A stretch of 64,000 bases of DNA. Source: Candidatus Moraniibacteriota bacterium. Lineage in GTDB: Bacteria; Patescibacteriota; Minisyncoccia; Moranbacterales; UBA1568. The notes under the pieces are model-generated. The model saw only the letters and a program-made list of their open reading frames with translations. It ran no database searches and was not told where the DNA came from. Position 1 is the stretch's first letter, and every line of letters starts with the position of its first letter. The position numbers were made by a program, and so were the translations under genes. This document shows positions 46,277-60,464 of this stretch, piece after piece. The stretch lies in contig CAVURJ010000002.1 in assembly GCA_963743885.1 (NCBI GenBank), positions 241,706-305,705 on the forward strand, written 5' to 3'.

Positions 46277-47878
46277 TTATATAGCATACGTTTTGTTAGA
46301 TAATATGGGCCTGTAGTAAAGTGGTATTACGCGGCATTCGCATTGCCGAGTCGGGAGTTCGATTCTCCCCAGGTCCACCAAATCGGATTTTTTATCGCCA
46401 AAGGTCTCACTTATCTCAAAGATAAGCCCCAATTTGGCAGTTCCAAATCCTACACCTTTCGTATAGCGTATTCCCTCGGGAAAAACCAGTTTTTGGAACC
46501 GAGGATACAGATGCGGGGGTAAATCCGTCCATTGTCTTCCTAAATCGCTTATGTAGCGTTCTGCATAGGCTACCGAGGCTTCTGCATCGAATTGTTCTAT
46601 CCGAGCCTCACTTCGCGAAATACGCGAAGCTATGAGTTCGTTTTCTACTTCGGCTTTCCGTTCGGTAAATTCTTCCTTTGTATAGGAGCCGTCTTCTCGC
46701 ATCTCGAAAATCCGTTTACGCTTCTCTTCCAAAAGGGCGATTGTCTTATCGTATCGTTTCGCCTCGGCTTCAAAATGTCCGCCTTTGTCTTTCCAGATAC
46801 TCACAATGGTCGAGTTGATGAGGTCGCGAACTTTCTTCTTAGGGATGATTTTTTGGAGCTTCTTTACGAAGTCTTCTGCTACCTTGTCCACGGAAAGACT
46901 TTTGCAATACATAGAGCAACCCTTGGTGAAGCAATGATAGTAGGGGTATGCTCCACCTGTTCCGTGGGAAATACTCGCGGTTACTGCTTTACCGCACTCT
47001 CCGCAGAGGATTGTTTTCCGCAAAGGAAAGGTTGGATTTACCTTGTGGCGGAGGATTTTCACGCCCTTACCCGCCATTCGTTGTTTGATTTGATAGTGTT
47101 CTTCTTCTGTAATCATCGGTTTGTGCAATCCTTTGACTTCTTCTTTCGCCCACGGATTGACGATGATACCTGCATAAAAGTTCAAATGCCTGAAAAGCAA
47201 TCCGCTCACGAATTGCACTCGTGTTTTGCTTCCTCGGTATTTATCAAGCCCCCACTCATTGAACAAACGAGCAAGCTCTGTTTGAGAGACTTGCCCGCGA
47301 GCGTATTCTTTCAATCCGCGTTGAATAATAGGAAAGATGTTTTCGTCTGGCTTGTCGGGTTCGTTTTTCTTTTCGCCTCGTTTCTTGGCTTGTCCGCAAA
47401 TGTAGCCGATAGGAGGCTTCCACGGAAAGATGCCTTGGTTTATTCGTGAAATCATTCCGTCCACGCAACGCTGACGACGAACGGCATTATCAAATTCAGC
47501 ACTGCCCGCCAACACGGTCTCGATGAACTTTTCGGTCGGGTTGTTTCCAATTGGTTCCGTTACGGAATGGAGGGTTACGCCATAATCAAGAAGCACCTTG
47601 CGGACATAGAAATGGTCTTCGGTATTTCTGGCGAACCTGTCTACTTTGGCAACTACAAACGCATCCATTTCCCCTTTATTCTTTCGGCAAAGTTCGATAG
47701 CTCGCAGGAACTCCTTGCGGTCGGCAGATTTTGCCGAAGCTCCCTCCTCACGGAAAACGGCTACGATTTCGATGCCTCGGTCTTTGCAATAGTTTCGGCA
47801 AATCTCTTCTTGAAAATCAAGAGAAGTGCCTTTGATTTGTTCGTCGCTTGATACGCGTGTATAGATTATTCCTTTCAT
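46277..47878 (-). CDS. Large serine recombinase (resolvase/invertase N-domain, recombinase domain and zinc ribbon).
   Basis: Starts MKGIIYTRVSSDEQ with the catalytic Ser, then ...VAKVDRFARN and CGECGK..YYHC zinc ribbon. The open frame runs antisense through the tRNA, so the true C-terminus is probably shorter. Confidence 0.85.
   Translation of the reverse strand: MKGIIYTRVSSDEQIKGTSLDFQEEICRNYCKDRGIEIVAVFREEGASAKSADRKEFLRAIELCRKNKGEMDAFVVAKVDRFARNTEDHFYVRKVLLDYGVTLHSVTEPIGNNPTEKFIETVLAGSAEFDNAVRRQRCVDGMISRINQGIFPWKPPIGYICGQAKKRGEKKNEPDKPDENIFPIIQRGLKEYARGQVSQTELARLFNEWGLDKYRGSKTRVQFVSGLLFRHLNFYAGIIVNPWAKEEVKGLHKPMITEEEHYQIKQRMAGKGVKILRHKVNPTFPLRKTILCGECGKAVTASISHGTGGAYPYYHCFTKGCSMYCKSLSVDKVAEDFVKKLQKIIPKKKVRDLINSTIVSIWKDKGGHFEAEAKRYDKTIALLEEKRKRIFEMREDGSYTKEEFTERKAEVENELIASRISRSEARIEQFDAEASVAYAERYISDLGRQWTDLPPHLYPRFQKLVFPEGIRYTKGVGFGTAKLGLIFEISETFGDKKSDLVDLGRIELPTRQCECRVIPLYYRPILSNKTYAI
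46307..46380 (+). tRNA. tRNA-Ala (anticodon CGC) with genome-encoded CCA.
   Basis: Cloverleaf folded by hand: 7-bp acceptor stem with G3:U70, D stem gtaa/ttac, anticodon stem cggca/tgccg with loop ttCGCat, T arm gggag-TTCGATT-ctccc, discriminator A plus CCA. Confidence 0.85.
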
Positions 47879-48108
47879 AATTTTGTAGTTAGAAAAACCC
47901 AAAAGGCGGTTCTGGCACCCAACTAAACGGCCAAAGCTGTTTTCGTCGGCAGAACCGCCTTTTGGGCGTACGAAAACAAAAAATTTGGCAGTATATTATA
48001 GTTGGGTGCATCTATATTATGCCTCATTTTTCGCTTTCTGCCAACTCCTTTTTGAGGATTTTTGCGAGCTTTTTTATCGCTGTATCGCTCATATCTCCTA
48101 TGACAGGC

Positions 48109-49164
48109 TCAATTTCTGAATTGCCCAAACTTGATACCACGGATGATTTCTGTTTGCCTGTCCGTAGAGATTTTCCCGTAGCCGTAAGAACCAAAGGTTG
48201 TCCCCACGTCTGTATGTCCGAGATTTTGACTGATAGCTTTCTTTTCTTCTTCCGTCAGTCGCGTCTTGATGAACTCTTTGACGATGAGATGCCGAAAGGT
48301 ATGCGGATGAAAATAGGGGATGCCTGCACCCTTGAAACGTTTCTCAAATATCTTTCGGGCGGGCGATGCGTTACTCCAAAAGATAGGCTCGACCACTCCC
48401 GAACTGTAATAGCTGATATTTTCTTTCCCTTGTTCCAATTTGGTGGCAGGAAAAAGCGGGTCGCCTGAAGAAAACTTCCGCTTCTGCTCAAGATAGTCGA
48501 ACCATTCCAGAAAGTAGGAAAGTGGCTTTGGGTCTGGCATTGGGAAGAGGGCGGTTGTAATCATCTTGGAAAACTTGGTTTTCACTCCCGAGGCAGGGTC
48601 TTGCTCCAAGATGAGCCTTCGTTTATCAAAGCTCTTCATTCGTAGGCTGGAAATAGCGGAAATTCTTGCTCCCGTGAGGAGCGTGAGGGCGATGAGAGCT
48701 TTATCGCGTTTTTCCACCTCGGTTTCTCCATTGATACTCTCAAGCACTTTTAGGACTTCCTCGAAAGTCGGAGCATCCACTGTCCTTGCTCGGGTGGCTA
48801 TCTGGCTTTCTTTCCGCGAGAGGTTCAGGAAGCCTATATGGGTAGCGTTGATTTTGGATTTCGGCTGTTGGGCAAGCCACTCGAAGAACTTCCGCAGATA
48901 GCGGAGAATATCGTAGCAATAGCTCAAGCTGATGGAGTTTTTGGAACCCTTCTTTTCCTTTCCCTTGAGCCAGTCTCTGAAAGCGATTGCCTGCTTATCG
49001 TTGAATAGGCTGAAATCTTCCGTCTTGGTAAAGTCTTCCCAGTAGAGCAAGGCTTTCTCGAAAGACCCTATGGAATTAGCTGAAAATTGCTCTGAATTTT
49101 TGAGGAAGGCGAAGAACTCACGCTTCGTCATTTCATTCTTGTAATTGGCTTTTTGCATATACAT
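48109..49164 (-). CDS. Tyrosine-type site-specific recombinase/integrase.
   Basis: C-terminal catalytic box HPHTFRH...LGHTDVGTTFGSYGY (H-x-x-R ... Y) and an N-terminal SAM-like domain. Confidence 0.85.
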   Translation of the reverse strand: MYMQKANYKNEMTKREFFAFLKNSEQFSANSIGSFEKALLYWEDFTKTEDFSLFNDKQAIAFRDWLKGKEKKGSKNSISLSYCYDILRYLRKFFEWLAQQPKSKINATHIGFLNLSRKESQIATRARTVDAPTFEEVLKVLESINGETEVEKRDKALIALTLLTGARISAISSLRMKSFDKRRLILEQDPASGVKTKFSKMITTALFPMPDPKPLSYFLEWFDYLEQKRKFSSGDPLFPATKLEQGKENISYYSSGVVEPIFWSNASPARKIFEKRFKGAGIPYFHPHTFRHLIVKEFIKTRLTEEEKKAISQNLGHTDVGTTFGSYGYGKISTDRQTEIIRGIKFGQFRN

Positions 49165-49242
49165 TTAGGCGTTATTGATGATTTACCCGTAAAGAGACAT
49201 TCAGGAGAGAGTTACTGGAACCTGTTAGTCCTTTTGGAAGTC

Positions 49243-49626
49243 TCATACGAGGCGATTTACTTTTGTCTCGCATCGCTCGCATTTTCCTCGTTGTAAGAAT
49301 TGCTTACGCGAATTTTTACCAATTGTTTTTCCTGTCGGCACGGTCTCTTCCGTTCCTGATTTGGCACGGGTCGGCACTCGGCATTTCAGGCAATAATACT
49401 CGCCTTCTTTGAGTGATACTTTCCGCTTCTTCATTTTTTCAGAAAGGAAGTGGCGGAGTTCGTCGCCCATAATGAGGAGGGGACGAGTGTTTTTTTCAAG
49501 GGGATGGAGACCATCCCCAAGCCATCGGAAAATCGTTTTCTTATTGATGTGAAAGAGCGTGGCAATTTCTTCGGGTGTGTAGCTATGGCGAGACGTGATA
49601 AGTCTCGGATTATATCGTCGTGTCAT
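49243..49626 (-). CDS. Excisionase-like HTH DNA-binding protein with a C-terminal zinc ribbon.
   Basis: YTPEEIATLFHINKKTIFRWL helix-turn-helix and CLKC...CERC. Start reassigned to the internal Met at 49626. Lies immediately upstream of the tyrosine recombinase. Confidence 0.45.
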   Translation of the reverse strand: MTRRYNPRLITSRHSYTPEEIATLFHINKKTIFRWLGDGLHPLEKNTRPLLIMGDELRHFLSEKMKKRKVSLKEGEYYCLKCRVPTRAKSGTEETVPTGKTIGKNSRKQFLQRGKCERCETKVNRLV

Positions 49627-49656
49627 ATGTGAGTAATTATGGATTTCAAGCTGGCT

Positions 49657-49829
49657 ATACTTCTTTGGGCGGAAGTGCTCCACCTTGAGCGGTAGCCTTC
49701 CTTTCGGAAAGCCACTGCTCAAAGATAATTTCTCCAAGGATTTGAACGGCATCTCTGATTTCGGCTACTTCCTCATCGGAAAGCGTATCGTCGTCCAAAA
49801 GCTGTCTTGCTTCTTCGATGGTTAGCATA
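49657..49829 (-). CDS. Small hypothetical protein (57 aa) translationally coupled to the upstream DUF5659 gene by an ATGCTAA overlap.
   Basis: Translated by hand: MLTIEEARQLLDDDTLSDEEVAEIRDAVQILGEIIFEQW... It is not in the supplied ORF track because it falls under 60 aa. Confidence 0.3.
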
Positions 49830-50109
49830 CAGCTTCATCCGAATAGAGGCGGTTCTTTATCATCTTTTGGCTATCAAAAAGCGTCCGTGCATTGAGTTGC
49901 AAACGGTCGTTCCAGTAGTCGTTGGTGCTCGTCTCGATAGTCGGGACGCGTCGAAAGATGAACCGAGCTTTCTTCGGGTTTACGGTTCGCTCAAGGGTAT
50001 GTAGCTCATACCCCAAAGCCACGAGAGAAGAAGCCAAGCCAAGGTCGGTCGTGGCATACTTCGCTTCTTCAGATAGTTCTGCTGTCTCCTTTAGATGTTT
50101 GGTAATCAT
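49822..50109 (-). CDS. DUF5659-like protein.
   Basis: DLGLASSLVALGYELHTLER...ARFIFRR...DYWNDRLQLNARTLFDSQKMIKNRL matches the remembered DUF5659 pattern common on mobile elements. Confidence 0.45.
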   Translation of the reverse strand: MITKHLKETAELSEEAKYATTDLGLASSLVALGYELHTLERTVNPKKARFIFRRVPTIETSTNDYWNDRLQLNARTLFDSQKMIKNRLYSDEAVC

Positions 50110-50285: not shown

Positions 50286-51833
50286 CTATAAATTTGGGGC
50301 TACGTCTTCCATATAATCACCAATATCAGAGTAGGGGTCGCTCTGTCCTTTTTTATCATCGACATAGGCTTTGTTTTTCTCCGTCGCCATTTCGCTAAAC
50401 AAGGTAAATCTCGTTCTATAGGAGTTATTTTCCTTGTAGGGATGAAATGGGTCGCTCTCCATACTGAAATAGTTTTTTAGTATATCGGAGACTTGCTGTT
50501 TTTGCTTTTTATACTGCACCTTAGCTGTTTCGTCAGGAATGGATATTTCTCCATTTTGTATCGCTAAAACTTTGAAAAAATCCCATAGGACACTCGGATT
50601 TCCATCGTGCTTCCCAAACCCCATCTCTTCGTATGTTGCAGTATGTTCCTTAGAGGGGAGTTTTATATGTATCTTTTCATCTTTCAAAACCTTCATTGAT
50701 ACCTGCCTCCACTCTGTTCCTGCTGGGATAGTAGAGGGGAACTTATGCTTTGTTTTGCTGGCGTTTCGCTTATCATCAATGCTGATGGCAATCTCTTTTT
50801 CCTGAATACTGTTCTGAAAGGTATGGATATGCTCGTGTTTGATTACCGTTCCTTTCGGTTCTGTAGCATCATCTTTTTTGGTGTCCGTCTTTTTATCAGA
50901 AGAGAATTTTTGGAAAAAATCCTTTTCTTTTTCCAACATAATACTTTTGAGACCTGCTACTTCCTCTTTGATAGTCCCCAACAATAAGGCGACGCTTTTA
51001 TCGAACGGATGGATTTCTGAATTGTTCTCAAACAAATCTTTGTCAGCCACTGTTTCCCTGAAATCAATAAGATATTGTTCTACACCGTCCGACCAAGTTC
51101 CATCAAGAAAATCAGGGGCGGAATAAAGGCTGGTTATTGGCTCGATAAGACCTTGGTAGCATTGGCTTTCTTTCAATCCTTCAAACGACGGTTCACTAAG
51201 AACAACCTCCATCAATTTTCTTCGCAATACCTTGAAAGAAACATTGAGTTCATCAATGCCCGACCTCAAGAAAATAAGTCCGTTGCCATAGTAAGCCCGT
51301 ATAATCGCCTCATAATACGAATACAGTATGCTCAAGAGATAAATCTTCTTATTGAGGGAGAAATCACTAAACTGAAAAGTGTTGAAATCTCTGATTATCT
51401 TTGATTTTTCCAAAACTGTTTTTGCTTCAGCTTGGAAGGAAACAGAGCTGGGAGCCGATACCAACCTCGCGGCAATATCCTTCACTTTTTGTATAAGCAA
51501 CAAATCGGTTGGAGATATTTCTTTGCCATTCAGCATAGAACTTACCTCCATATACTCAATCAAGGCGTATAGAGTTTTTCCGACGGTCAAATCATCTTCA
51601 TCTTCCCAGATAGTCCGCAATCTATTGGCTTTGGATGCCGAAAGGTTTTCTCTATCGTATTTCGGACTATAAATCTCTATACCGAAGTGTTCCTGAAAAA
51701 ACTCTTCTATTGTCCGATTGGAAAAATCCAGAACGTATCCTTGGCTCATTCCAAAAAGCGTTTCGATGATTTTCCTTTCACTCCCATTGAATTTTATACT
51801 CATTCTCATTTGAGAAGCATTTCCTCTGCCCAT
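50286..51833 (-). CDS. Large hypothetical protein (515 aa), possibly defence- or abortive-infection-related.
   Basis: No domain confidently recognised. A weak Rx6H motif (RNASKTKH) is present. Heads an operon that ends in the tyrosine integrase. Confidence 0.45.
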   Translation of the reverse strand: MGRGNASQMRMSIKFNGSERKIIETLFGMSQGYVLDFSNRTIEEFFQEHFGIEIYSPKYDRENLSASKANRLRTIWEDEDDLTVGKTLYALIEYMEVSSMLNGKEISPTDLLLIQKVKDIAARLVSAPSSVSFQAEAKTVLEKSKIIRDFNTFQFSDFSLNKKIYLLSILYSYYEAIIRAYYGNGLIFLRSGIDELNVSFKVLRRKLMEVVLSEPSFEGLKESQCYQGLIEPITSLYSAPDFLDGTWSDGVEQYLIDFRETVADKDLFENNSEIHPFDKSVALLLGTIKEEVAGLKSIMLEKEKDFFQKFSSDKKTDTKKDDATEPKGTVIKHEHIHTFQNSIQEKEIAISIDDKRNASKTKHKFPSTIPAGTEWRQVSMKVLKDEKIHIKLPSKEHTATYEEMGFGKHDGNPSVLWDFFKVLAIQNGEISIPDETAKVQYKKQKQQVSDILKNYFSMESDPFHPYKENNSYRTRFTLFSEMATEKNKAYVDDKKGQSDPYSDIGDYMEDVAPNL

Positions 51834-51917
51834 TGCAGGGAAAATACGACGTTTGGCGTAATTGTAATCGTGTAGTATAGTTATGGTAACTTATATAGGG
51901 CGTGAAATCAAGCTTTT

Positions 51918-52109
51918 ATGGAAAGAAAAGAACTGCCAGATATTCTAACTTTGAAGCAAGCCTGTGCGGTTTTGAATTGCCATCCCAATACGCTTAGGCT
52001 ATGGGATAAAAAAGGTATTTTAGTAGCTATACGCCTCGGCAAGAGACGCGATAGACGTTATAGGAAAGACCAAATCTTTGCTTTGTTAGAAACATCTCAT
52101 AAAGGGTAA
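51918..52109 (+). CDS. Helix-turn-helix (AlpA/MerR-type) DNA-binding protein.
   Basis: LTLKQACAVLNCHPNTLRLWDKKGIL. Confidence 0.6.
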   Translation: MERKELPDILTLKQACAVLNCHPNTLRLWDKKGILVAIRLGKRRDRRYRKDQIFALLETSHKG

Positions 52110-52133
52110 AGTATCCGTAACAATATAATTACT

Positions 52134-53852
52134 ATGTCAGAAAATTCACTCAAAAAAGGTCGCTACACGAAATACAGCAATAAAATTGGATTGTATAGCA
52201 ATAGCAAAGGGGGATTTATCAAAAACGATACTGACGTAGTTCTGAACTTCCCGTTCAAAGATACTGTGCTTGAAGCGGGGATGAACAAAGAGGATGTAGG
52301 GCGTGATGAGCGTTTTTTACATTTGGAAATTGATAGTAAAGACATCGACACATTGGAAGAACCGAAAGTGCTTACTGACTTCCTCTACTTTGATAAAGAT
52401 GGCGAGAAGGCGTTAGACGCAAATAGTGATATTGAGTTTTTTGATATTGAAGGCAATCTCAAACAAAACTTACTCATCAAGGGCAATAACTTACTGGCAC
52501 TCTATACTCTTCGAGAAAAACTCGCTGGAAGGGTGAAAGCGATTTATATTGACCCACCCTACAATCCTCCGAGTAAGTCAAACACATTTATTTACAATAA
52601 TAACTTCAACCATTCCTCTTGGTTGGTATTTATGAGAAATCGCCTTGAAATGGCGAAACAGCTACTAACGGACGATGGTGTTCTTATTTGTGCCATTGAT
52701 GAAAACGAACTTGCGTATTTGGGAGTTTTGATTGACGAAGTTTTTGGCAGTGAAAAGGAAAGTCATTTCATTACTATTGTTCATAATCCACGAGGTATTC
52801 AAGGCACTAACTTCTCTTACACTCACGAATACGCAATCTTTGTTATTCCAAAGGGGCTGAAAACTATTGGAAACCGAAAAATTGAAGCTGAAGATATCTC
52901 TTGGCGTAACTTGCGAGATAACGGCGGAGAGTCGTTGCGCACAGACGCAAAAAACTGTTTTTACCCAATGGTGGTAAAAGACGGTGAAGTTATAGGCTTT
53001 GGTGATATAGCAAAAGATGAAATACACCCTAATGCCAATGAACCGCAAACAGATGGCTCGATATACATATACCCAATCGACCCAAGTGGAATTGAGCGTA
53101 AATGGCGATACGCACGACAAAGCGTTGATAAAATAAAAAATTTGTTGCGAGCAAAAGAGTCAAAGGGGGTTTGGCAGATAGAAATTGGTAAAGACTTTGG
53201 TCAATATAGAACAGTTTGGCAAGACCCCAGATATGACGCTAACGAGTACGGCACTAAATTGGTAAAAAGTCTTGTGCCAAGTTCGGAGTTTGATTTTCCA
53301 AAATCTCTGTGGAATGTATACGACTGTCTTTATGCGGTTGTTGCAGATGACCCAAATGCTATCATCTTAGATTTCTTTGGTGGAAGTGGCACTACCGCAC
53401 ACGCTACACTGGAACTGAATAAGGATGGCGGTAGTAGGAAGTTTGTCATAGTAGAACAAATGGGCTACATCGCATCCGTAACTCTCCCAAGAATTGAAGC
53501 TGTGATAAAGAAAGACACCCTAAAAGAGTCTTTCGTGTATTTTGAACTCAAAAAATACAACCAAGAATACATCGACCGTATTGCGAAAACTACAAGTCTC
53601 TCTGAACTGGAAGAAATCTATGTGGATATGCGAAACAACGCTTTTCTCAAGTTTTGGTTTGACCGCAAAGAGTTTGAAAAGGATGAGAATTTCCGTAATC
53701 TCGACATTGAGGGTCGGAAGCAAAAGCTCGTGGATGTATTGGATGAAAATCAGCTCTATCTGAACTATGCCGATATGGGCGATACACGGCACAAAGTAAC
53801 TGCCGACGAAAAAACACTAACGGACAAGTTCTATGGCTCGGAAAAAAACTAA
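52134..53852 (+). CDS. mod: Type III restriction-modification Mod subunit (beta-class DNA methyltransferase).
   Basis: Motif IV IYIDPPYN precedes motif I FFGGSGTT, which is beta-class order. Overlaps the downstream res gene. Confidence 0.8.
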   Translation: MSENSLKKGRYTKYSNKIGLYSNSKGGFIKNDTDVVLNFPFKDTVLEAGMNKEDVGRDERFLHLEIDSKDIDTLEEPKVLTDFLYFDKDGEKALDANSDIEFFDIEGNLKQNLLIKGNNLLALYTLREKLAGRVKAIYIDPPYNPPSKSNTFIYNNNFNHSSWLVFMRNRLEMAKQLLTDDGVLICAIDENELAYLGVLIDEVFGSEKESHFITIVHNPRGIQGTNFSYTHEYAIFVIPKGLKTIGNRKIEAEDISWRNLRDNGGESLRTDAKNCFYPMVVKDGEVIGFGDIAKDEIHPNANEPQTDGSIYIYPIDPSGIERKWRYARQSVDKIKNLLRAKESKGVWQIEIGKDFGQYRTVWQDPRYDANEYGTKLVKSLVPSSEFDFPKSLWNVYDCLYAVVADDPNAIILDFFGGSGTTAHATLELNKDGGSRKFVIVEQMGYIASVTLPRIEAVIKKDTLKESFVYFELKKYNQEYIDRIAKTTSLSELEEIYVDMRNNAFLKFWFDRKEFEKDENFRNLDIEGRKQKLVDVLDENQLYLNYADMGDTRHKVTADEKTLTDKFYGSEKN

Positions 53853-56664
53853 AGTCAATGAAACACTTGGCGACTTTCTGTTTAACCAGATAGAGAGCGA
53901 CCCTGATTTTCAGCAGTGGGCGGTATATTATAGCATTCCTGAATATATTACCGACAACCTACACCCGACGAAACGCTTGCGAGAGTATCAAAAGCAGGCT
54001 TTGAAGCACTTTATCTGGCTTTATGAACACGATAGGGCGAAGGCGAAGCATCTTTTGTTCAATATGGCGACGGGAACGGGCAAAACCCTCATAATGGCGT
54101 CCGTGGTGCTATTTCTGTATGAAAATGGCTATAGGAATTTCCTCTTTCTCGTGCATCAGATACAAATCAAAGACCAAGCCGTAAAGAACTTTACGGACTA
54201 CAAGTTTGAGAAGTATCTGTTCAATCCAAAGGGTATCAAAATCAATGGGCGAAATGTGGACGTCAAAACGGTTGAGAGCGTGGCTGATGCCAATCGCAAC
54301 GCCATAAACTTTATGTTCTTCAGCACTTCACTCCTCTACAATCGCCTCAAAGAAGACCGAGAAAATGGATTGACTGCCGATGACTTCGCAAATCACGATG
54401 TCGTGATAATTGCTGACGAAGCCCATAGGCTCAATGTGGATACGCGGAGCAAAAATAAGAAAGACCAAGAAGAAATACTCAACTGGGAAACAGCCGTAAT
54501 GTCGGCTATCAAGGCTCGGGAAGAAAATATACTGTTGGAGTTTACCGCTACGGTTGATTTGGCGAATGAGGCTATCCACAGTAAGTATGAGGACAAGATT
54601 GTCCATCGCTATGATTTTCTTGAGTTCAATAAAGACGGTTATAGCAAAGACGTAAAGTTTCTCTTCAATCAAGAGGTGCATACCGAAGACCAAAAACGCT
54701 TGTTGATTATCAATGCCGTTGTTTTGAGTGAATACCGAAGGTTACTTGCCGAGCGTGAAATGGACGTGTTTATCAGTCCAATTGTGCTTATCAAGTCAGT
54801 GAAAATTGCCCAAAGTGAAGAAGACCGAAAGTTTTTTGACAGCGTGATTGGTTCTTTGCGACCAGATGATTTGAGCCGTCTCAAAGAACTCAGTAAGGGA
54901 GGGGAAAATCGTGAACACGAGATTTTGAGTGATATGTTCGACTGGCTCGCTTCTCCAAAAGCTGGACTTGTATCGCAAGGAGACTGGGATGGTTTGAAGG
55001 CATTTACCGCCGAAATACGCGGGAGCTTTGCCCACGAAAACACACTTATTTATAACAGTCAGAAAAAGGAAAAAGCGGAATTATTGCCATTATTGGATAG
55101 CCCACGAAACACTATCCGTGCCATCTTTTCAGTCAATGCGTTGAATGAGGGTTGGGATGTGCTTGGTTTGTATGACATTGTTCACTTTGATATTTCCGAA
55201 GCCAAAAAGGTATCTCTCCAAGATATTCAATTGATTGGTCGTGGTGCGAGATATTGCCCCTATGAACTGCCAAAGCTCTACAAGCAGGATGAGGACGATG
55301 GTATGTCGAGCCTGTTTTCTGGTCGCAATCTTGAGTTTGATAAATACAAGCGGAAGTTCGACAACGACCCATTCGATAAGGGACGGGTGCTGGAAACGTT
55401 CGTCTATCATTTCGTAAAGACGGGGACATTCCTTGAAAACCTTCAACGTGATTTGCTTGGTGAGGGCATTATTAGTGAGGGTATTGAAAAGAAGACTATT
55501 GCAATGAAGCAAAAGTTCCTCGAAAGCGAGACCTACAAGAAGGGATTCGTTCTTGTAAATCATACGGAGCAAAGAACTAAGACGAAAGATGATGAGATTG
55601 ATACGACATTCAAGCGTGTCATAAAGGCTGGCTCGTATAATTTACGGGCGAGGGGTCTATCGGATTTTGAACAAAACCAAATTATCGCAGGACAAAAAGT
55701 TGATGTTATTAGTATCACTGAAGAATACTTCCCACTGCCTGTCATTCGTAAAGCGTTGGTTTCTGCCGAGGGTAACTTTTTCCGTTTCAGTAATTTGAGC
55801 AAGCATATTGTCGGTATCAGCACGATTGATGAGCTCATTGAAAAATACCTGCCACTCTACAAAATCAGTTATACCTACGAAGAGGGAAAAGGCATCAGTC
55901 AGCTCAACCCGATAGAAAAGCTACAATTGTTGGTTGGCGTGATATTGCTAGAAGTGCGTAAGGCGATTGATATAAATATGCCCCGCGTAACGGGTAGCAA
56001 AAAATTCCGCCCAGTCTCATTGTCGGTTGTTTTTGGCAAGGAAAAGAATATCTATCTGATGTCGTTTCCAGTCGAAGATGCGGTTACTGGGAAGAAGGTG
56101 TTTATGAGTAACGATGAACGTGCCAAAGCACAGTCCAACCACGACAATCCAGAACTGCAATACGATATTCAGTCCGCCAATTGGTATGCCTATGATGAGA
56201 ACTACGGCACGAGCGAGGAAAAACGCTTTGTGAAGTATATAGCGAGCCAAATTGACGATTTACGTGCGAAATATCAGGGAGCGGAGATTTATCTGATACG
56301 TAACGAGCTTGATTACTGGCTCTTTAGCCCGCAAGACGGACGCAGGTTCAGTCCTGACTATATGCTGATAGTGAATGATGTCGCCAATGGTGAGATGTAT
56401 TACCAGTGTTTGATTGAGCCAAAGGGCGGGCATTTGCTCGAACACGATGCTTGGAAGGAAGAAGCCTTGATAAGCCTGAATGATGATAGCGAGGTGGTAT
56501 TTGATGCACAGGACGGTGATACCCGCAATTACCGTGAATACTTGGCAGAAATCAGTAAGCACGGCTACAAAGAAATAAAGTCGCTTGGCTTGAAGTTCTA
56601 CAATTCCGACACTCGCGGTGAAGCCGATTTCGCATTGGATTTTCAAGAAAAGTTACTATCTTAG
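53833..56664 (+). CDS. res: Type III restriction enzyme Res subunit (SF2 helicase plus endonuclease).
   Basis: Helicase motif I MATGTGKT and motif II IIADEAHRL. About 940 aa. Follows mod with overlap. Confidence 0.8.
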   Translation: MARKKTKVNETLGDFLFNQIESDPDFQQWAVYYSIPEYITDNLHPTKRLREYQKQALKHFIWLYEHDRAKAKHLLFNMATGTGKTLIMASVVLFLYENGYRNFLFLVHQIQIKDQAVKNFTDYKFEKYLFNPKGIKINGRNVDVKTVESVADANRNAINFMFFSTSLLYNRLKEDRENGLTADDFANHDVVIIADEAHRLNVDTRSKNKKDQEEILNWETAVMSAIKAREENILLEFTATVDLANEAIHSKYEDKIVHRYDFLEFNKDGYSKDVKFLFNQEVHTEDQKRLLIINAVVLSEYRRLLAEREMDVFISPIVLIKSVKIAQSEEDRKFFDSVIGSLRPDDLSRLKELSKGGENREHEILSDMFDWLASPKAGLVSQGDWDGLKAFTAEIRGSFAHENTLIYNSQKKEKAELLPLLDSPRNTIRAIFSVNALNEGWDVLGLYDIVHFDISEAKKVSLQDIQLIGRGARYCPYELPKLYKQDEDDGMSSLFSGRNLEFDKYKRKFDNDPFDKGRVLETFVYHFVKTGTFLENLQRDLLGEGIISEGIEKKTIAMKQKFLESETYKKGFVLVNHTEQRTKTKDDEIDTTFKRVIKAGSYNLRARGLSDFEQNQIIAGQKVDVISITEEYFPLPVIRKALVSAEGNFFRFSNLSKHIVGISTIDELIEKYLPLYKISYTYEEGKGISQLNPIEKLQLLVGVILLEVRKAIDINMPRVTGSKKFRPVSLSVVFGKEKNIYLMSFPVEDAVTGKKVFMSNDERAKAQSNHDNPELQYDIQSANWYAYDENYGTSEEKRFVKYIASQIDDLRAKYQGAEIYLIRNELDYWLFSPQDGRRFSPDYMLIVNDVANGEMYYQCLIEPKGGHLLEHDAWKEEALISLNDDSEVVFDAQDGDTRNYREYLAEISKHGYKEIKSLGLKFYNSDTRGEADFALDFQEKLLS

Positions 56665-56682
56665 TTATGAGGGTGTCGATAT

Positions 56683-58215
56683 ATGAAGATATTATTAGCT
56701 GGACCAGGAACTGGGAAAACAACAAATATAGGAAATATCATCAAGGGCAAAGAAAGTCTCGATGGTATTTTAGTAATCTCATTTACCAATGCCACTGTTG
56801 AAGACTTGAAAAAATCACTTTCTCAAGTAGGGTTGCCTCTGGAGAATTGTATGACACTTCATAAGCTTGCCGTGAAGTATAACCACGATAAATCAAGGCA
56901 CGTTCTTGAGGTGATGGAGGCTAATGAACTTTACAAAATATCTAAATCAACCGAAATTGGTTTCAATGAGCTGTGTGATTTTCTATCAGCCACAACTTTC
57001 GACCAAATGATTGGTCGTTTTGTTGCCTATGCGAAATCAAATCCAGAGTATCTCAAAGAAAAGCTCTCAAGATATTCCGTGTTGATAGTTGATGAGTATC
57101 AAGACTTCAACAAAAACGAACAGGAACTCATTGATTTACTTGTTGGGATAATGCCTGATACTTATATCCTTGGAGATGATGACCAGTGTATATATGACTT
57201 CAAAGATGCGGATAATGATAAAATTATCTCTCTTTACTCGGATGCTTCACACGAAAAAATTGAACACGAGCATAAATGTTACAGATGCCCCGATGTGGTT
57301 GTTGATAGTGCTACAAAACTTATAAAAAAGAATACTAAACGAGTTGATAAGAAGTGGGAAAAAAATGGTAACGTAGGAAACCTTGTTCAGAGGCAATTCG
57401 CGTCAAATACCAATACGGCGGATTACATTTTAGAAGAAGTAAAAAAAATACTCGAAGACAATGCAGATGATAAGGTTTTGATTTTGAGCCCTGTTGGTTT
57501 TCTTGTGGAAACCCTTACAAATGTATTGGATGGTTCGGGAATTGAATACAGGAACTATTTTATTGCAAAAGTAGACCCAGAACTTGTTATAAAGTCTTGG
57601 GTTTTGAGAGCTTGTTTTGGTAGGCATAAATACTTGAACCTAATGCTCATTGGATACAGAGTTCTTTCATCAAGAAAAAAATTCTACGAAACAATCAAGA
57701 AACACTATGCTTCGGGGCAGGACTTTGATGAGCTTTTCAAAGTGGTTGCAAGCAAGTTGCCAGATGAAGGGAAAAAAACTTATGATAGCGTTGCTATCGC
57801 TCTACAAGAGCCATATTTTCAGGGTCTTACTGATTTTTTCAATAACGCTGAAGGCGGGAGTGAGGATGAAAAACTGGAGAACCTGTTTGTTTTGGTAGAC
57901 GAGAATGTTGAAAAACGAGTGAATATAATGTCTATCCATAAGTCAAAGGGTCTTGGTGCAGAACACGTTTTTATGATTGGATTGGTTGAAGGTATCATCC
58001 CGAACCGTGCAAAAGGAAATGATACAATCGAGAGCCAGAGGAGACTTTTCTATGTTGGTATGACCAGAGCAAAAAAGAACCTACATCTCATCTCAAGCAT
58101 CAATTTTGAGGGTAGATACGTGAATACTGTAAACAAGGACGACTTCAGGTTTGATGTTAGGTCTCGTCTGTGGAAGGGTAAATCTTCTCGATTTATTGAG
58201 GAAATAAACGCATAG
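56683..58215 (+). CDS. Short UvrD/Rep-like SF1 helicase with no nuclease domain.
   Basis: Walker A GPGTGKTT, motif II VLIVDEYQDFN, motif V/VI SIHKSKGLGAEHVFMIG and YVGMTRAKKNLHL. Confidence 0.75.
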   Translation: MKILLAGPGTGKTTNIGNIIKGKESLDGILVISFTNATVEDLKKSLSQVGLPLENCMTLHKLAVKYNHDKSRHVLEVMEANELYKISKSTEIGFNELCDFLSATTFDQMIGRFVAYAKSNPEYLKEKLSRYSVLIVDEYQDFNKNEQELIDLLVGIMPDTYILGDDDQCIYDFKDADNDKIISLYSDASHEKIEHEHKCYRCPDVVVDSATKLIKKNTKRVDKKWEKNGNVGNLVQRQFASNTNTADYILEEVKKILEDNADDKVLILSPVGFLVETLTNVLDGSGIEYRNYFIAKVDPELVIKSWVLRACFGRHKYLNLMLIGYRVLSSRKKFYETIKKHYASGQDFDELFKVVASKLPDEGKKTYDSVAIALQEPYFQGLTDFFNNAEGGSEDEKLENLFVLVDENVEKRVNIMSIHKSKGLGAEHVFMIGLVEGIIPNRAKGNDTIESQRRLFYVGMTRAKKNLHLISSINFEGRYVNTVNKDDFRFDVRSRLWKGKSSRFIEEINA

Positions 58216-58234
58216 GGCTAATTCGGGTTAGATT

Positions 58235-58798
58235 ATGTATCATCCTATTCAACCACCAGAAGGAAGTATTGAATGGATGAAGGAGATGGTAAAGAAGAAT
58301 GAGGGGCGTGAGTTGACTGACCAAGAGGCTCACGAAGCGGCTTACAACTATCTCAACTTCTTCAATATGCTTATCTACCTGGATAAGAAGCAACACCCTA
58401 TGAAAAAACTTTACCTTGATATTGACGGGGTGCTTCTTACCAAACAGGGGGTTCCCGCCTCGCATATTGTAGAATTTCTTCAATTTGCTACGAGCCATTT
58501 TGATTGCTACTGGCTCACGACCCATTGCGATGGAGACGCAACCACCGCATTCTTGTATCTGGTAGGAAAACTTCCACCTGAAGCCGTTCCATATTTTGAA
58601 AAGATAAAGCCTACCAAATGGAAGCTCTGGAAGCCCGAGGGGATAGATTTTTCAAGCGATTTCTTCTGGCTCGATGATTACGCCTTTGATGGGGACAAGA
58701 AAGTTTTGGAAGAGCATAAGGCGTTAGAGAAGCTAATCACCGTAGACCTCAATAATAATCCAAATCAGCTACGAGACTTGGTAAATATCTTGAAATGA
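58235..58798 (+). CDS. HAD-like hydrolase candidate.
   Basis: DxDGV motif I (LYLDIDGVLLT). 20 bp downstream of the helicase gene. Confidence 0.4.
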   Translation: MYHPIQPPEGSIEWMKEMVKKNEGRELTDQEAHEAAYNYLNFFNMLIYLDKKQHPMKKLYLDIDGVLLTKQGVPASHIVEFLQFATSHFDCYWLTTHCDGDATTAFLYLVGKLPPEAVPYFEKIKPTKWKLWKPEGIDFSSDFFWLDDYAFDGDKKVLEEHKALEKLITVDLNNNPNQLRDLVNILK

Positions 58799-59793
58799 AC
58801 AAGGAGAAAAAACCGACCAAGGGAAATCACTTTCTGCCTATTACTTACTTGAGGCATTTTCTTCACGATGACAAATTGGTGATGTATAAAAAGGGAGAAA
58901 AATTCTTTACAGGGGCAAGTAAGCCCGCCGATAGAATAGTTGTTGTTTCTGGAGAGGGTGGCTTGAAGGCAATTGCCAAGCAGAACAACTTGTATACTCT
59001 CAAGGGTGTTGAAGGCGTTGAGAGTGATTTTATGGAGAAGTTTTTCGTTGATTTGATTGAAGGGGAGCTGAATTACCTTATTGAGGAAATAGATAAACTT
59101 CCATTTGGGTCTCCTATCGTAGACGAGCTAAAACAAAAAGTTTGCATCCTAATGGCTTCTATGGTGGTGAGGGTGCCTGGAGCCAAGCAAGAAACAGAGG
59201 AGCTATATACGGAATTTTTCAAAATGCACTTCCAACACGCACCAATGTCCGAAGAAGAAAAAGTCGCTATAAAGGAACAAGTGAAGAAAGAAGAGGGGAG
59301 AGAAATAAACGATAAGGATTTTGAGGATGCTATTCAAGCTTTCGCTGATGGAAAGCTCAAATTGAGTGTATCAAGCAATCATTTTGTAAAAGACATTCTT
59401 TCCAGAATTGACGATTTTGCTAACATCTTCTACGGAATGAAAATGTGCATTCTTAGGGGGGATGGAACAAATTTCTTTATTACATCAGATAATCCAGTTG
59501 CATACTTTGTGCCAAAAGATAAAGCTGATTATCACCTCAACGCCGCACGAAGTCTGATGAGTAAATATACGGAGGTCAATTTTCCGCTTACAAAAGACTA
59601 TTGTGTTGTTATGACGAGGATGGACGATATGCACGAGATGATGCTACCTACCACCCAAGAGATATTCGATAGGCTGGAAAACACCCTATCCTGCTTCTCC
59701 AAAGACTATATCTTTTCGCCTGTTCAAAAACCGATTTTGGATGATTTTGCCAATGAGTATATCCCATATCCTTTCAAGCTGGTAAGAAGATAG
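58795..59793 (+). CDS. DUF4238-like protein.
   Basis: N-terminal GNHFLPITYLRHF matches the DUF4238 NHYxPxxYLxxF signature. ATGA overlap with the upstream gene. Confidence 0.55.
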   Translation: MNKEKKPTKGNHFLPITYLRHFLHDDKLVMYKKGEKFFTGASKPADRIVVVSGEGGLKAIAKQNNLYTLKGVEGVESDFMEKFFVDLIEGELNYLIEEIDKLPFGSPIVDELKQKVCILMASMVVRVPGAKQETEELYTEFFKMHFQHAPMSEEEKVAIKEQVKKEEGREINDKDFEDAIQAFADGKLKLSVSSNHFVKDILSRIDDFANIFYGMKMCILRGDGTNFFITSDNPVAYFVPKDKADYHLNAARSLMSKYTEVNFPLTKDYCVVMTRMDDMHEMMLPTTQEIFDRLENTLSCFSKDYIFSPVQKPILDDFANEYIPYPFKLVRR

Positions 59794-59795
59794 CT

Positions 59796-59996
59796 ATGAT
59801 TTCCAATGAACATATTCAGGAGTTCAAAAGGCTCTACAAAAACCGCTTTGGGAAGGAGCTTACTGATGTCGAAGCCCGAGAGAAAGGTTCAGCTTTGGTG
59901 CGTTTTCTGAAAATCATCTACAAGCCAATGACGAAAGAGGAGTTTGATGAACTGGCGAAAAGGAACCCGTCTATACCGCTTGAGCCTGCTCAATAG
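59796..59996 (+). CDS. Small hypothetical protein (66 aa), last gene of the operon.
   Basis: Starts 3 bp after the DUF4238 stop. Confidence 0.35.
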   Translation: MISNEHIQEFKRLYKNRFGKELTDVEAREKGSALVRFLKIIYKPMTKEEFDELAKRNPSIPLEPAQ

Positions 59997-60160
59997 CCAT
60001 CCCAAGTGATTGCCACTCCTGCAATTCTCGGGTAAGATAGTTCCAATTGAGTAGGAGGTAGTCCACACTTCGACTCGCTTCGCTCGCTCAGTGTAAACAC
60101 GAAATACTGAGAAGCGAGGTGAAGTACCCTGAGCCTGTCGAAGGGCATCATAGCTCCTGT

Positions 60161-60415
60161 ATGGCTTGGTACACATATATTGCGAAAGCGAGAACCGGCC
60201 GGTACTATACCGGTATTACGAATGATCCTTGTAAAAGAATTGAGAAACACAATTCTGGAAAAGGTTCTCTCATGGCGGTTCAACAGGGGCCATTTGATCT
60301 CGTGTATGTTTCGAATGAATTTCCAGGAAAATCAGAAGCTAGAAAACGGGAAGAACAGATTAAGGGCTGGAGCAGAGAAAAGAAAGAGAAGTTGATTTTT
60401 GGTGAATGGGTATAG
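60161..60415 (+). CDS. GIY-YIG nuclease family protein.
   Basis: WYTYIAKARTGRYYTGITNDPCKRIEKHNSG is the GIY-YIG/URI signature. The ORF opens with GTG at 60119 and ATG at 60161 is the more likely start. Confidence 0.7.
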   Translation: MAWYTYIAKARTGRYYTGITNDPCKRIEKHNSGKGSLMAVQQGPFDLVYVSNEFPGKSEARKREEQIKGWSREKKEKLIFGEWV

Positions 60416-60440
60416 TCGTTAATAACGAGCAGTGAGATAT

Positions 60441-60455
60441 CTCCCCAGGTCCACA
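60441..60455 (+). repeat. attR core: direct repeat of the tRNA-Ala 3' end (tctccccaggtccac).
   Basis: 15/15 identity with 46366-46380. Confidence 0.55.
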
Positions 60456-60464
60456 CTAAAACCA

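What the first reader, a model, noticed from the sequence alone, without database searches (positions are those of the whole stretch)
46307..60456. Roughly 14 kb AT-rich integrative island at tRNA-Ala(CGC) carrying two recombinases and a defence cargo
An intact tRNA-Ala sits at one end. A 15-bp direct repeat of its 3' end lies at 60441-60455. A large serine recombinase reads toward the tRNA, and a tyrosine integrase plus Xis-like gene lie next to it. A marked drop in GC is visible by eye. Cargo is DUF5659, a 515-aa unknown protein, a Type III R-M pair, a UvrD-like helicase, HAD-like and DUF4238 proteins and a GIY-YIG nuclease. The presence of both a serine and a tyrosine recombinase suggests a composite or nested element.
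Basis: seen in the sequence. Interest (0 to 1): 0.8.

Follow-up and report, generated by a model that had tools for sequence, protein, structure and literature searches.

The report
Serine-integrase defence island at tRNA-Ala
A 13.7-kb mobile island carrying anti-phage genes sits at a tRNA-Ala gene of a tiny Patescibacteria (Moranbacteria) bacterium, and comparison with relatives indicates it was inserted by a large serine recombinase whose own gene spans the attachment site, although tRNA insertion is usually credited to tyrosine integrases.

Summary
"HAD-like" has no support.

The interpretation needs three corrections.

- **The recombinase pair is a module, not a nesting.** A tyrosine recombinase followed directly by a large serine recombinase (LSR) recurs in about eight independent Patescibacteria elements.
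- **The LSR is the likely tRNA integrase.** Relatives abut the 3' ends of at least seven other tRNA species (at least ten across all partner LSRs) at the same codon, with or without the tyrosine partner. 46 of 97 database homologues end in antisense-tRNA peptide. attL and attR share only GTCCAC. The element arm carries GGTTCCAA 14 bp from the core, where the tRNA T-loop has GGTTCGA(T/A) at 9 bp. This matches the 5-bp attP/attB offset described for serine integrases.
- **The true right end is an inner site at 60061-60066.** Joining it to attL restores a conserved LSR C-terminal tail. The GIY-YIG gene and the 15-bp repeat are a separate 0.39-kb remnant.

Empty sites and sibling elements in other species show mobility. 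I rate it a new variant of a known kind. The closest analogue is the Dehalococcoides ssrA islands.

The parts
46307..46380 (+). tRNA-Ala(CGC), the attB-derived target. The terminal CCA is encoded only in occupied sites.
   Evidence: ARAGORN and Rfam. The tRNA is 72 nt without CCA in the empty sites L001, L006, L010, L032, L077 and L003. It is 74 nt with ..CCACCA in occupied sites.
46373..46378 (+). attL core GTCCAC (tRNA positions 69-74). Element DNA starts at 46379.
   Evidence: Homology between sibling elements begins right after ..GGTCCAC. Coordinates.
46277..47881 (-). Large serine recombinase in its integrated form (534 aa). The last roughly 34 residues (..DLGRIELPTRQCECRVIPLYYRP..) are antisense tRNA.
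   Evidence: PF00239 E=4e-30 and PF13408 at its cutoff. Translation. Residues 235-428 align to the A118 integrase RD-ZD-CC region, PDB 4kis.
47897..48009 (-). Conserved structured leader just upstream of the LSR start codon. Two helices are arranged a-b-a'-b' (pseudoknot topology).
   Evidence: (z=-5.85). Over 13 sequences, 94.5% of cells are paired and 15 of 26 pairs show compensatory changes. No shuffle of 500 reached the observed values, and slid controls gave 35-52% paired. No Rfam hit.
48024..49164 (-). Tyrosine recombinase with catalytic R..HxxR..H..Y present. A 1-nt insertion in the run at 48124-48126 puts the last roughly 30 codons out of frame.
   Evidence: PF00589. Protein alignment A1. 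DNA alignment A6 showing the extra base. Sequence.
49243..49752 (-). p169, an HTH plus DUF5679 protein that always sits upstream of the tyrosine recombinase. It is a candidate excisionase or regulator.
   Evidence: Homologues of 41-76% identity occupy the same position in every pair-bearing locus that extends that far upstream.
49822..50109 (-). DUF5659 protein, part of the conserved core.
   Evidence: PF18903. Conserved in L015, L027, L081, L094, L112, L114 and L117.
50286..51833 (-). p515, the occupant of a variable slot. Its terminal domains are shared with Abi_C, TIR, Mrr, DUF4297 and AbiTii fusion proteins, which suggests a defence role.
   Evidence: L027 has an unrelated 521-aa ORF in the same slot. 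The AlphaFold2 model (pLDDT 74.6) has no PDB fold match.
51918..52109 (+). HTH_17 (MerR/excisionase-type) small protein at the head of the cargo operon.
   Evidence: PF12728 E=4e-9. Conserved at 60-75% in L027, L081 and L094.
52134..56664 (+). Type III restriction-modification pair, Mod 52134..53852 and Res 53833..56664.
   Evidence: PADLOC MTase_III 1e-89 and REase_III 4e-95. Pfam.
56683..58215 (+). UvrD/GajB-like SF1 helicase. No GajA partner is present.
58235..59996 (+). The p187 - DUF4238 - p66 module.
   Evidence: PF14022 at 92.6 bits. The trio is 89-98% identical in L054 (96%, 98% and 89%), a genome whose YkuD is only 59% identical. A DUF4238 protein protected against T7 (bioRxiv 10.1101/2021.01.21.427644).
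59971..60066 (-). Detached 3' end of the LSR gene. It encodes the native tail VDYLLLNWNYLTRELQEWQSLGMAIEQAQAV* once the element is circular.
   Evidence: The tail is homologous to those of L112, L095 and the unrecombined L087, L089, L090 and L091 genes.
60038..60066 (+). attR1, the element (P) arm TAGTTCCAA-N14-GTCCAC. This is the true right end of the 13,688-bp element.
   Evidence: Homology with L112 and L054 stops exactly after GTCCAC.
60067..60439 (+). A 0.37-kb remnant outside the main element: a long hairpin followed by the GIY-YIG gene (60119..60415).
60440..60454 (+). Outer 15-bp direct repeat of the tRNA 3' end (attR2). No GGTTCCAA arm lies upstream of it.
60461..60501 (+). Hairpin plus T-run, read as the tRNA's displaced intrinsic terminator.
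   Evidence: -22 kcal/mol. Equivalent hairpins follow the empty-site tRNA in L001 and attR in L112, L107, L003 and L095.

Best explanation
The region holds a 13,688-bp integrative element (46379-60066) of a Candidatus Moranbacteria (Patescibacteria) genome, plus a 0.39-kb older remnant (60067-60454).

Proposed mechanism:
- The element's large serine recombinase recombines an attP that lies inside its own gene, about 31 codons before the stop.
- The partner site is the 3' end of tRNA-Ala(CGC). Exchange happens within the shared hexamer GTCCAC (tRNA positions 69-74).
- The left half of attP carries GGTTCCAA 14 bp from the core. It imitates the tRNA T-loop GGTTCGA(T/A), which lies 9 bp from the core. 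This is the 5-bp attP/attB offset of the zinc-ribbon-domain motif described for serine integrases.
- Integration leaves the tRNA intact, with the element supplying ..CCA. It replaces the recombinase's native C-terminal helix with antisense-tRNA residues.

Other components:
- The tyrosine recombinase and the upstream HTH protein are a conserved, co-inherited partner module. Their substrate is unknown. My guess is multimer resolution or help with excision.
- Cargo is anti-phage: Type III R-M, a GajB-like helicase, a DUF4238 module and a modular Abi-like protein.

Shown by sequence: the boundaries, mobility between species, the family-wide LSR-tRNA junction, the restored reading frame and the motif offset.
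Inferred: catalysis by the LSR, the exact crossover position, any role of the tail swap, and the role of the tyrosine recombinase.
For: 1. Boundaries and mobility.
- L001 is an empty site.
- Siblings with LSRs 84-93% identical sit at the same tRNA in other species (L015, L027, L081, L105, L112). Cargo differs in L027 and L112.
- Homology between the window, L112 and L054 ends exactly at GTCCAC on the right and at ..CCAC on the left.

2. The LSR, not the tyrosine enzyme, tracks the tRNA.
- Relatives 50-65% identical abut Glu-CTC, Glu-TTC, Arg-CCG, Ala-TGC, Ala-GGC and Lys-TTT tRNAs at the same codon.
- The more distant partner LSRs abut Ala-TGC, Glu-CTC and Ser tRNAs.
- L085, L088, L095 and L096 have no tyrosine recombinase nearby.
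- Of 97 classifiable homologues, 46 end in antisense-tRNA peptide (GFEP, RIELP) and 42 in the native WNQII.ELK.WQ tail.

3. Serine-type att sites.
- attL and attR share only 6-8 bp in the window (attR1), L112, L095 and L107.
- The element arm is GGTTCCAA-N14-core in 9 sites. The tRNA arm is GGTTCGA(T/A)-N9-core.
- LI integrase places its zinc-ribbon motif at bp 16-24 in attP and 11-19 in attB (PMC3783163).

4. Joining attR1 to attL restores a 532-aa ORF with a conserved tail and a clean stop.

5. The protein is a genuine LSR.

6. The Tyr-Ser pair is conserved.

Against: - Nothing here is experimental. No circular junction or attB read was available, and no relatives occur in the viral collection.
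- Only the left halves of attP and attB show the shared motif. The right half of attP, which lies in LSR coding sequence, is not its inverted copy, unlike textbook serine att sites.
- GGTTCCAA also encodes the conserved tail residues N-W-N. Protein-level and DNA-level constraint therefore cannot be separated.
- The outer 15-bp repeat is longer than a serine-type core and is unexplained in detail.
- About half of the family sits in long contigs with an unrecombined attP (L098, L121). These enzymes are therefore not always engaged at a tRNA.
- The tyrosine recombinase is more conserved than its LSR partners (55-59% against 28-30%), so it clearly matters, yet its role is unknown. The window copy is frameshifted.
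- The empty-site comparator is only 65% identical in the flanking protein.
Confidence: 0.72

Rival explanations
1. Classical model. The tyrosine recombinase, with the HTH/Xis-like protein, is the tRNA integrase. The serine recombinase has another job, such as resolution, inversion or regulation.
For: - Integration at a tRNA 3' end with a 15-bp direct repeat is the hallmark of tyrosine integrases (PMC4383910).
- An int plus HTH gene pair is present.
- The tyrosine recombinase family is very large in Patescibacteria (at least 2500 hits) and more conserved than the LSR partners.
Against: - The tyrosine gene is never the one next to the tRNA.
- LSR-only relatives sit at tRNAs with the identical junction.
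- The inner att sites share only 6-8 bp.
- The 15-bp repeat lies outside the element boundary defined by three genomes.
- The tyrosine enzyme stays 55-59% identical across elements that target Ala, Glu and Ser tRNAs, whereas the LSR diverges with the target.
Confidence: 0.1
2. Two independent mobile elements, one with a serine and one with a tyrosine recombinase, are nested or fused here by chance.
For: - Two unrelated recombinase genes lie side by side.
- The island does contain a second att-like site and a small remnant.
Against: - The same gene order (p169, Tyr, LSR, tRNA) is found in about eight independent contexts, down to 28-30% LSR identity.
- A minimal 5.5-kb element (L114-116) consists of little else.
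- No att-like boundary separates the two genes. A conserved LSR leader lies between them instead.
Confidence: 0.04
3. The island is a fixed, decaying relic that can no longer move. The features are real, but the element is dead in this genome.
For: - The tyrosine recombinase is frameshifted near its 3' end.
- Many decayed relatives exist at this locus: L054 lacks both recombinases, L003 has two orphan right arms, and L096, L097 and L103 have a split LSR.
Against: - The LSR ORF, its leader, attL, attR1 and the detached tail-coding segment are all intact and in frame.
- The frameshift lies in a 3-base run after the catalytic Tyr and could be an assembly error.
- Siblings with 84-93% LSR identity in other species argue for recent transfer.
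Confidence: 0.14

Closest known systems
Dehalococcoides ssrA-specific genomic islands (DsiB/DsiA integration module; McMurdie et al. 2011, PMC3146451)
   Same: - A roughly 540-aa CcrB-like large serine recombinase lies on the reverse strand immediately next to attL.
- The att repeat is embedded in the recombinase gene's 3' end.
- The target is the tRNA-like 3' end (T-loop region) of a stable-RNA gene.
- The islands are low-GC with variable cargo.
- Tandem accretion leaves multiple repeats.
   Different: - The target here is true tRNA genes of many identities, not tmRNA.
- The partner recombinase is a tyrosine enzyme, not the small serine recombinase DsiA.
- att identity is 6-8 bp, against 20 bp.
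- The host is Patescibacteria and the cargo is anti-phage defence.
- Sequence relatedness to DsiB could not be tested.
Phage-type large serine integrases (A118/LI, Bxb1, phiC31)
   Same: - The domain order is resolvase, recombinase domain, zinc ribbon, coiled coil.
- att identity is short.
- The same DNA motif lies 5 bp further from the crossover in attP than in attB.
   Different: - Those enzymes target protein-coding genes or intergenic sites.
- Their attP is not inside the integrase ORF.
- Both half-sites are usually near-symmetric.
- Here no phage genes are present, and there are no relatives in the viral collection.
tDNA genomic islands with tyrosine integrases (Islander/Williams class)
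   Same: - The island lies between an intact tRNA and a displaced copy of its 3' end.
- The element restores the tRNA.
- A tyrosine recombinase gene is on board.
   Different: - The tyrosine gene is not adjacent to the tRNA.
- The element's own boundary shares only 6 bp with the tRNA.
- The family-wide junction is with the serine recombinase.
- The Islander authors state that serine integrases were not known to target tRNA genes.
SSV-type archaeal integrases, whose gene is split by integration (from my own knowledge, not checked here)
   Same: attP lies inside the integrase ORF, so integration changes the gene product.
   Different: - Those are tyrosine recombinases and the gene is cut into two large parts.
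- Here only the last roughly 31 codons of a serine recombinase are exchanged.
Tycheposons of Prochlorococcus (bioRxiv 10.1101/2020.12.28.424599)
   Same: - Small cargo-carrying integrative elements sit at tRNA genes of a streamlined genome.
- A minority (27 of 937) carry a large serine recombinase.
   Different: - Most tycheposons use tyrosine recombinases.
- No Tyr-Ser pair or ORF-embedded attP is described in the text I read.
- Relatedness was not tested.

Membership tests
Large serine recombinase (serine integrase) | N-terminal resolvase-type catalytic domain | tested here: met
   PF00239 at 105 bits, cutoff 23.3. Aligns to the resolvase-family protein 3guv at 1.5e-14.
Large serine recombinase (serine integrase) | C-terminal recombinase domain, zinc ribbon and coiled coil | tested here: met
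   PF13408 at 25.3 bits, equal to its cutoff. Residues 235-428 align to the A118 integrase RD-ZD-CC region, 4kis/6dnw, at about 1e-6. PF07508 itself was not hit in the window protein.
Large serine recombinase (serine integrase) | Short att identity around a central dinucleotide, with the ZD motif 5 bp further out in attP than in attB | tested here: inconclusive
   The 6-8 bp identity and the N14-versus-N9 offset hold for the left half-sites in 9 element arms and 12 tRNA arms (rule from PMC3783163). The right half-sites do not show the motif. The crossover position is not determined.
Large serine recombinase (serine integrase) | Catalyses attP x attB integration | not testable with these tools
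   Needs an in vitro or in vivo recombination assay.
SCCmec CcrB, XisF and IS607 equivalogs | Score above the NCBIfam curated cutoff | tested here: not met
   XisF 81.5 bits against 375. CcrB 74 against 900. IS607 37.8 against 110.
Dehalococcoides ssrA-GI integration module | LSR next to attL with the att site embedded in its 3' end | tested here: met
   compared with the description in PMC3146451.
Dehalococcoides ssrA-GI integration module | Target is ssrA, with the small serine recombinase DsiA, ParB and Mom genes | tested here: not met
   The target is a tRNA. The neighbouring genes are a tyrosine recombinase, an HTH protein and DUF5659.
tDNA island with tyrosine integrase | Tyrosine recombinase with the catalytic R-H-R-Y residues | tested here: met
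   PF00589. Conserved R167, H288, R291, H317 and Y327/329 in alignment A1. The C-terminal tail is frameshifted.
tDNA island with tyrosine integrase | The integrase gene is adjacent to the tDNA, and the island's own ends share the tDNA fragment | tested here: not met
   The LSR lies between them. The element boundary (attR1) shares only GTCCAC, and the 15-bp fragment lies outside that boundary.
Type III restriction-modification | Adjacent Mod (N6/N4 methyltransferase) and Res (ResIII helicase-nuclease) genes | tested here: met
   PADLOC MTase_III 1.3e-89 and REase_III 3.9e-95, with the two ORFs overlapping.
Gabija | GajA (ATPase-Toprim nuclease) together with GajB | tested here: not met
   The helicase hits GajB models at 4.8e-40, but no neighbouring protein hits GajA.
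DUF4238 defence gene | DUF4238 domain above the Pfam cutoff | tested here: met
   92.6 bits against a cutoff of 27. Anti-T7 activity of a DUF4238 protein is reported in 10.1101/2021.01.21.427644. Activity of this copy was not tested.
Prophage, ICE or IME | Capsid, terminase or tail genes, or a relaxase or type IV secretion genes | tested here: not met
   None appears among the Pfam hits for the listed island ORFs. No relatives in viral contigs.

The most novel reading that the evidence does not exclude
A large, undescribed clade of large serine recombinases, found mainly in Patescibacteria but also in bins named Smithella, Ignavibacteriales and Clostridiaceae, has specialised in tRNA genes.

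- Its attP imitates the T-loop and acceptor 3' strand.
- Its own ORF spans attP, so integration swaps the enzyme's C-terminal helix. This could act as a built-in directionality switch.
- An obligate tyrosine-recombinase partner and a pseudoknot-type leader RNA control the cycle.

Because the recognised arm is the near-universal T-loop plus a short acceptor-specific core, such enzymes might be retargeted to tRNA genes in any organism.
Probability: 0.3. Interest if true: 0.85.

Novelty: new variant of a known kind. Interest (0 to 1): 0.66.

Why it matters
- **It challenges a working assumption.** Island-finding tools and reviews treat tRNA-gene integration as the domain of tyrosine integrases. 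The large LSR atlas examined only protein-coding targets and never mentions tRNA. A broad LSR clade that reads the tRNA 3' end would widen what serine integrases are known to target. It would also explain hundreds of mis-annotated recombinase C-termini, and it means such islands are missed by tyrosine-only pipelines.
- **It bears on Patescibacteria biology.** These bacteria have roughly 1-Mb genomes, and I found no description of their integrative islands in the searches I ran. This element family appears to be a main vehicle moving restriction and other defence systems among them.
- **It may have practical use.** Serine integrases with natural attB sites inside conserved tRNA genes, and a readable motif-offset logic, are attractive for genome engineering.
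- **It raises mechanistic questions.** The ORF-spanning attP and the conserved tyrosine partner are relevant to how directionality is controlled.

Tried and rejected
- **Exact-protein look-up of the flanking YkuD gene.** Nothing was on record. The genome was found later through the 507-aa version of p515, but no DNA was returned.
- **Direct repeats of the tRNA 3' end (8-11 bp or longer) in 11-15 related loci.** None were found. The far ends were located only through the GGTTCCAA arm motif.
- **Viral collection.** The predicted attP junction pattern and the LSR protein both found nothing. The element is not recognisably viral.
- **p515 structure.** The AlphaFold2 model (pLDDT 74.6, pTM 0.41) matched only generic helical proteins in the PDB at E above 0.1. 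No function was assigned beyond domain sharing with defence fusions.
- **A core-type site for the tyrosine recombinase.** A short-range inverted-repeat scan and an alignment of the p169-Tyr intergenic region turned up nothing convincing.
- **The inverted repeat between the two recombinase genes as a recombination site.** Rejected. It also occurs in elements without the tyrosine recombinase, and it covaries like RNA.
- **Symmetry of attP.** The right half is not an inverted copy of the left, judged by inspecting the sequences.
- **The consensus terminator scan.** It missed the hairpin after the outer repeat. Folding recovered it.
- **"HAD-like" for the 187-aa protein.** Rejected. It has no hit in Pfam, NCBIfam or PADLOC.
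- **Gabija.** Rejected because no GajA is present.

Full report
**1. Checking the observation**

ARAGORN finds one tRNA in the window, tRNA-Ala(CGC) at 46307-46380. Rfam agrees. The 15-mer TCTCCCCAGGTCCAC, which runs from the last T-loop base to C74, occurs exactly twice, at 46364-46378 and 60440-60454. No other match appears even with two mismatches allowed (chance expectation 0.08).

GC falls from 0.546 on the left flank and 0.531 on the right to 0.423 inside. The gene inventory is confirmed by Pfam, NCBIfam and PADLOC. The exception is the "HAD-like" label: the 187-aa protein has no hit in any of those libraries.

The LSR ORF does more than read toward the tRNA. It runs antisense through it and ends ..DLVDLGRIELPTRQCECRVIPLYYRP...

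**2. Host and mobility**

Relatives of the flanking L,D-transpeptidase (YkuD) all come from Candidatus Moranbacteria and other Patescibacteria assemblies, at 48-65% identity.

- In the closest one, L001, the order is YkuD, then tRNA-Ala (72 nt, no CCA), then a hairpin terminator, one ORF and QueA. There is no island.
- In L015, L027, L081, L105 and L112, an LSR 84-93% identical to the window's sits at the same tRNA. The tyrosine recombinase is 80-84% identical in L015, L027 and L081 and is also present in L112. L105 preserves only the LSR 3' end. Where host flanking genes are visible, they are only 57-72% identical. Cargo differs in L027 and L112.

This is an acquired, mobile element.

**3. 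The two recombinases form a module**

The tyrosine recombinase family has at least 2500 homologues, mostly in Patescibacteria. Every context I sampled has the same order: a small HTH protein homologous to p169, the tyrosine recombinase, an LSR of 515-568 aa, then host DNA.

- The contexts are L106, L107/108, L109-111, L112, L114-116, L117/118 and L119/120.
- A tRNA overlaps the LSR 3' end in nearly all of them.
- In these loci the tyrosine enzyme stays 55-59% identical to the window's, while the LSR is only 28-30% identical.
- A minimal 5.5-kb element (L114-116) holds little besides this core.

Chance nesting is excluded.

**4. Which enzyme targets the tRNA**

A metagenome scan with the LSR returned 25 loci. 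Wherever DNA was available, the conserved coding sequence runs right up to a tRNA 3' end. The tRNAs differ: Ala-CGC, Glu-CTC, Glu-TTC, Arg-CCG, Ala-TGC, Ala-GGC and Lys-TTT.

Several of these elements (L085, L088, L095, L096) have no tyrosine recombinase. They carry primase, Prim-Pol or ArdC-type genes instead.

I then classified the C-termini of 97 database homologues that are at least 58% identical. Of these, 46 end in antisense-tRNA peptide (GFEP, GIEP or RIELP, the reverse translation of the T-arm). Another 42 end in a conserved native tail..WNQII.ELK.WQ.L... The switch between the two endings always happens at the same codon.

**5. The real right end**

The native tail is encoded by a DNA segment with a conserved motif, (T/C)GGTTCCAA-N14-G(T/C)C(C/T)AC. 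Searching for that motif found several copies:

- at window 60038-60066;
- at the far end of the complete sibling L112;
- at the end of the decayed island in L054;
- at the far ends of L095 and L107;
- contiguous with the LSR gene in L087, L089, L090 and L091, which look like unrecombined attP sites.

Homology among the window, L112 and L054 stops exactly after GTCCAC. Joining 60066 to 46379 gives a 532-aa LSR ending ..KKSDLVDYLLLNWNYLTRELQEWQSLGMAIEQAQAV*. This is almost identical to the reconstructed L112 protein and homologous to the attP-form proteins.

The element is therefore 46379-60066 (13,688 bp). Its attP core lies inside the LSR gene, and integration exchanges the last roughly 31 codons.

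The GIY-YIG gene and the 15-bp repeat lie beyond this end. attR in L112, L107, L003 and L095 is followed by a hairpin-T-run terminator, as is the empty-site tRNA in L001. In the window that terminator follows the outer repeat, not attR1. I read 60067-60454 as an older insertion or remnant between the tRNA and its terminator. Similar orphan right arms occur in L003 (two copies), L002, L014 and L050. This points to repeated integration and decay at the locus.

**6. att-site logic**

attL and attR share only GTCCAC in the window (attR1), L112 and L095, and GTCCACTA in L107. That is a serine-type level of identity.

The tRNA arm reads (A/G)GTTCGA(T/A)-N9-GTCCAC. The element arm reads GGTTCCAA-N14-GTCCAC. 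Rutherford et al. showed that LI integrase places its zinc-ribbon-domain motif at bp 16-24 in attP and bp 11-19 in attB, a 5-bp shift (PMC3783163).

With that numbering, the crossover would fall at about the G|T of GTCCAC. The element would then supply CCAC-CA, which fits the observation that the full CCA end (..CCACCA) appears only at occupied or formerly occupied sites.

Two caveats apply. Only the left half-sites show the motif. The motif also encodes the tail residues N-W-N.

**7. The protein**

The N-terminal domain is resolvase-like, a zinc ribbon is present, and residues 235-428 align to the recombinase, zinc-ribbon and coiled-coil region of A118 integrase. The protein falls far below the NCBIfam cutoffs for XisF, CcrB and IS607.

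**8. Cargo**

- A Type III Mod/Res pair. Type III pairs recur as cargo in L081, L109, L117 and L119.
- A GajB-like helicase with no GajA partner.
- A p187 - DUF4238 - p66 module that is 89-98% identical in L054. DUF4238 is a validated anti-T7 gene.
- p515. Its N-terminal roughly 60 residues recur fused to Abi_C, TIR, Mrr and DUF4297 domains, and its C-terminal domain recurs fused to AbiTii. Its model has no fold match. L027 has an unrelated ORF in the same slot.

**9. Literature**

- The Islander paper states that serine integrases were not known to target tRNA genes.
- The LSR atlas of Durrant et al. never mentions tRNA.
- The nearest precedent is the Dehalococcoides ssrA islands: a 540-aa CcrB-like DsiB next to attL, with the repeat embedded in its gene, at the tmRNA T-loop.
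- A minority of tycheposons carry LSRs.
- I found no description of Tyr-Ser paired islands in Patescibacteria.

**10. Verdict**

I rate it a new variant of a known kind, with interest 0.66. Confidence that the LSR is the tRNA integrase is about 0.7. The role of the tyrosine recombinase remains open.

Noticed in passing
window 47897-48009 (minus strand), between the tyrosine recombinase and the LSR start codon: A conserved structured leader with two helices arranged a-b-a'-b'. Over 13 sequences, 94.5% of cells are paired and 15 of 26 pairs show compensatory changes. It is also present in elements without the tyrosine recombinase (L090, L098) and in a Smithella-labelled locus (L121). It has no Rfam family. 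This looks like an undescribed cis-regulatory RNA of these LSR genes.
   Followed up: yes
window 48124-48126: One extra base in a 3-base run frameshifts the tyrosine recombinase after its catalytic Tyr. The conserved tail MSDTAIKKLAKILKKELAESEK is still encoded in another frame and ends at 48024. This is either a real decay mutation or an assembly error.
   Followed up: yes
window 46218-46233: An exact 16-nt copy of the tRNA's D-stem-to-anticodon segment (46325-46340) lies about 75 nt upstream of the tRNA. Weaker similarity extends around it. It may be a relic of an older event involving the tRNA 5' half.
   Followed up: partly
window 60067-60439; L096:13312-13383; L103:7909-7980; L050; L092: The GIY-YIG gene is bracketed by two GTCCAC copies. 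It is preceded by a long hairpin whose stem covaries with a 76%-similar copy next to tRNA-Pro in L096 and L103. Tandem GIY-YIG genes also sit beside tRNAs in L050 and L092. These may be small mobile GIY-YIG cassettes that home to tRNA flanks.
   Followed up: partly
L006, L010, L032, L077, about 20-30 nt downstream of tRNA-Ala: Each empty-looking site has a degenerate copy of the tRNA 3' half (..TTG(C/T)TGAGTCGGGAGT..) just after the intact tRNA. These could be scars of other integration events with a crossover near the anticodon loop.
   Followed up: no
L054:12029-16745: A decayed sibling island. It has the tRNA-Ala, an HTH gene, a Tsp45I type II R-M pair, a DUF4268 fragment, p187 - DUF4238 - p66 at 89-98% identity to the window, an internal tRNA-Arg(TCT), and the conserved right arm. 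Both recombinases are missing.
   Followed up: partly
L081 compared with window 52134-56664: Res is 96% identical but Mod only 75%. This suggests a swapped target-recognition domain in the Type III methyltransferase between sibling elements.
   Followed up: no
L090:9986-17223: An LSR of this family with an unrecombined attP lies inside a larger element. That element carries a second, unrelated LSR abutting a truncated comM (Mg-chelatase) gene, a classic LSR target.
   Followed up: partly
database proteins P0196-P0315: About half of the annotated proteins of this LSR family have chimeric C-termini translated from antisense tRNA genes. This is a systematic annotation artefact, and it doubles as a marker of the integrated state.
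   Followed up: yes
L096, L097, L103: The LSR relative at tRNA-Ala(GGC) is split into ORFs of 205 and 332 aa, so it is probably a pseudogene. It sits next to a Prim-Pol/AAA_25 replication gene.
   Followed up: no
L121 (contig binned as Smithella): A 59%-identical LSR with the native tail and the same leader RNA sits beside SIR2 plus DUF87/HerA, WYL and Eco57I-type genes, with no tRNA. The family therefore extends beyond Patescibacteria and keeps its association with defence genes.
   Followed up: partly
window 58004-58103: A sub-threshold Rfam match to a C. difficile sRNA annotated inside a helicase gene (37 bits against a gathering score of 65). It most likely reflects conserved helicase coding sequence.
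   Followed up: no
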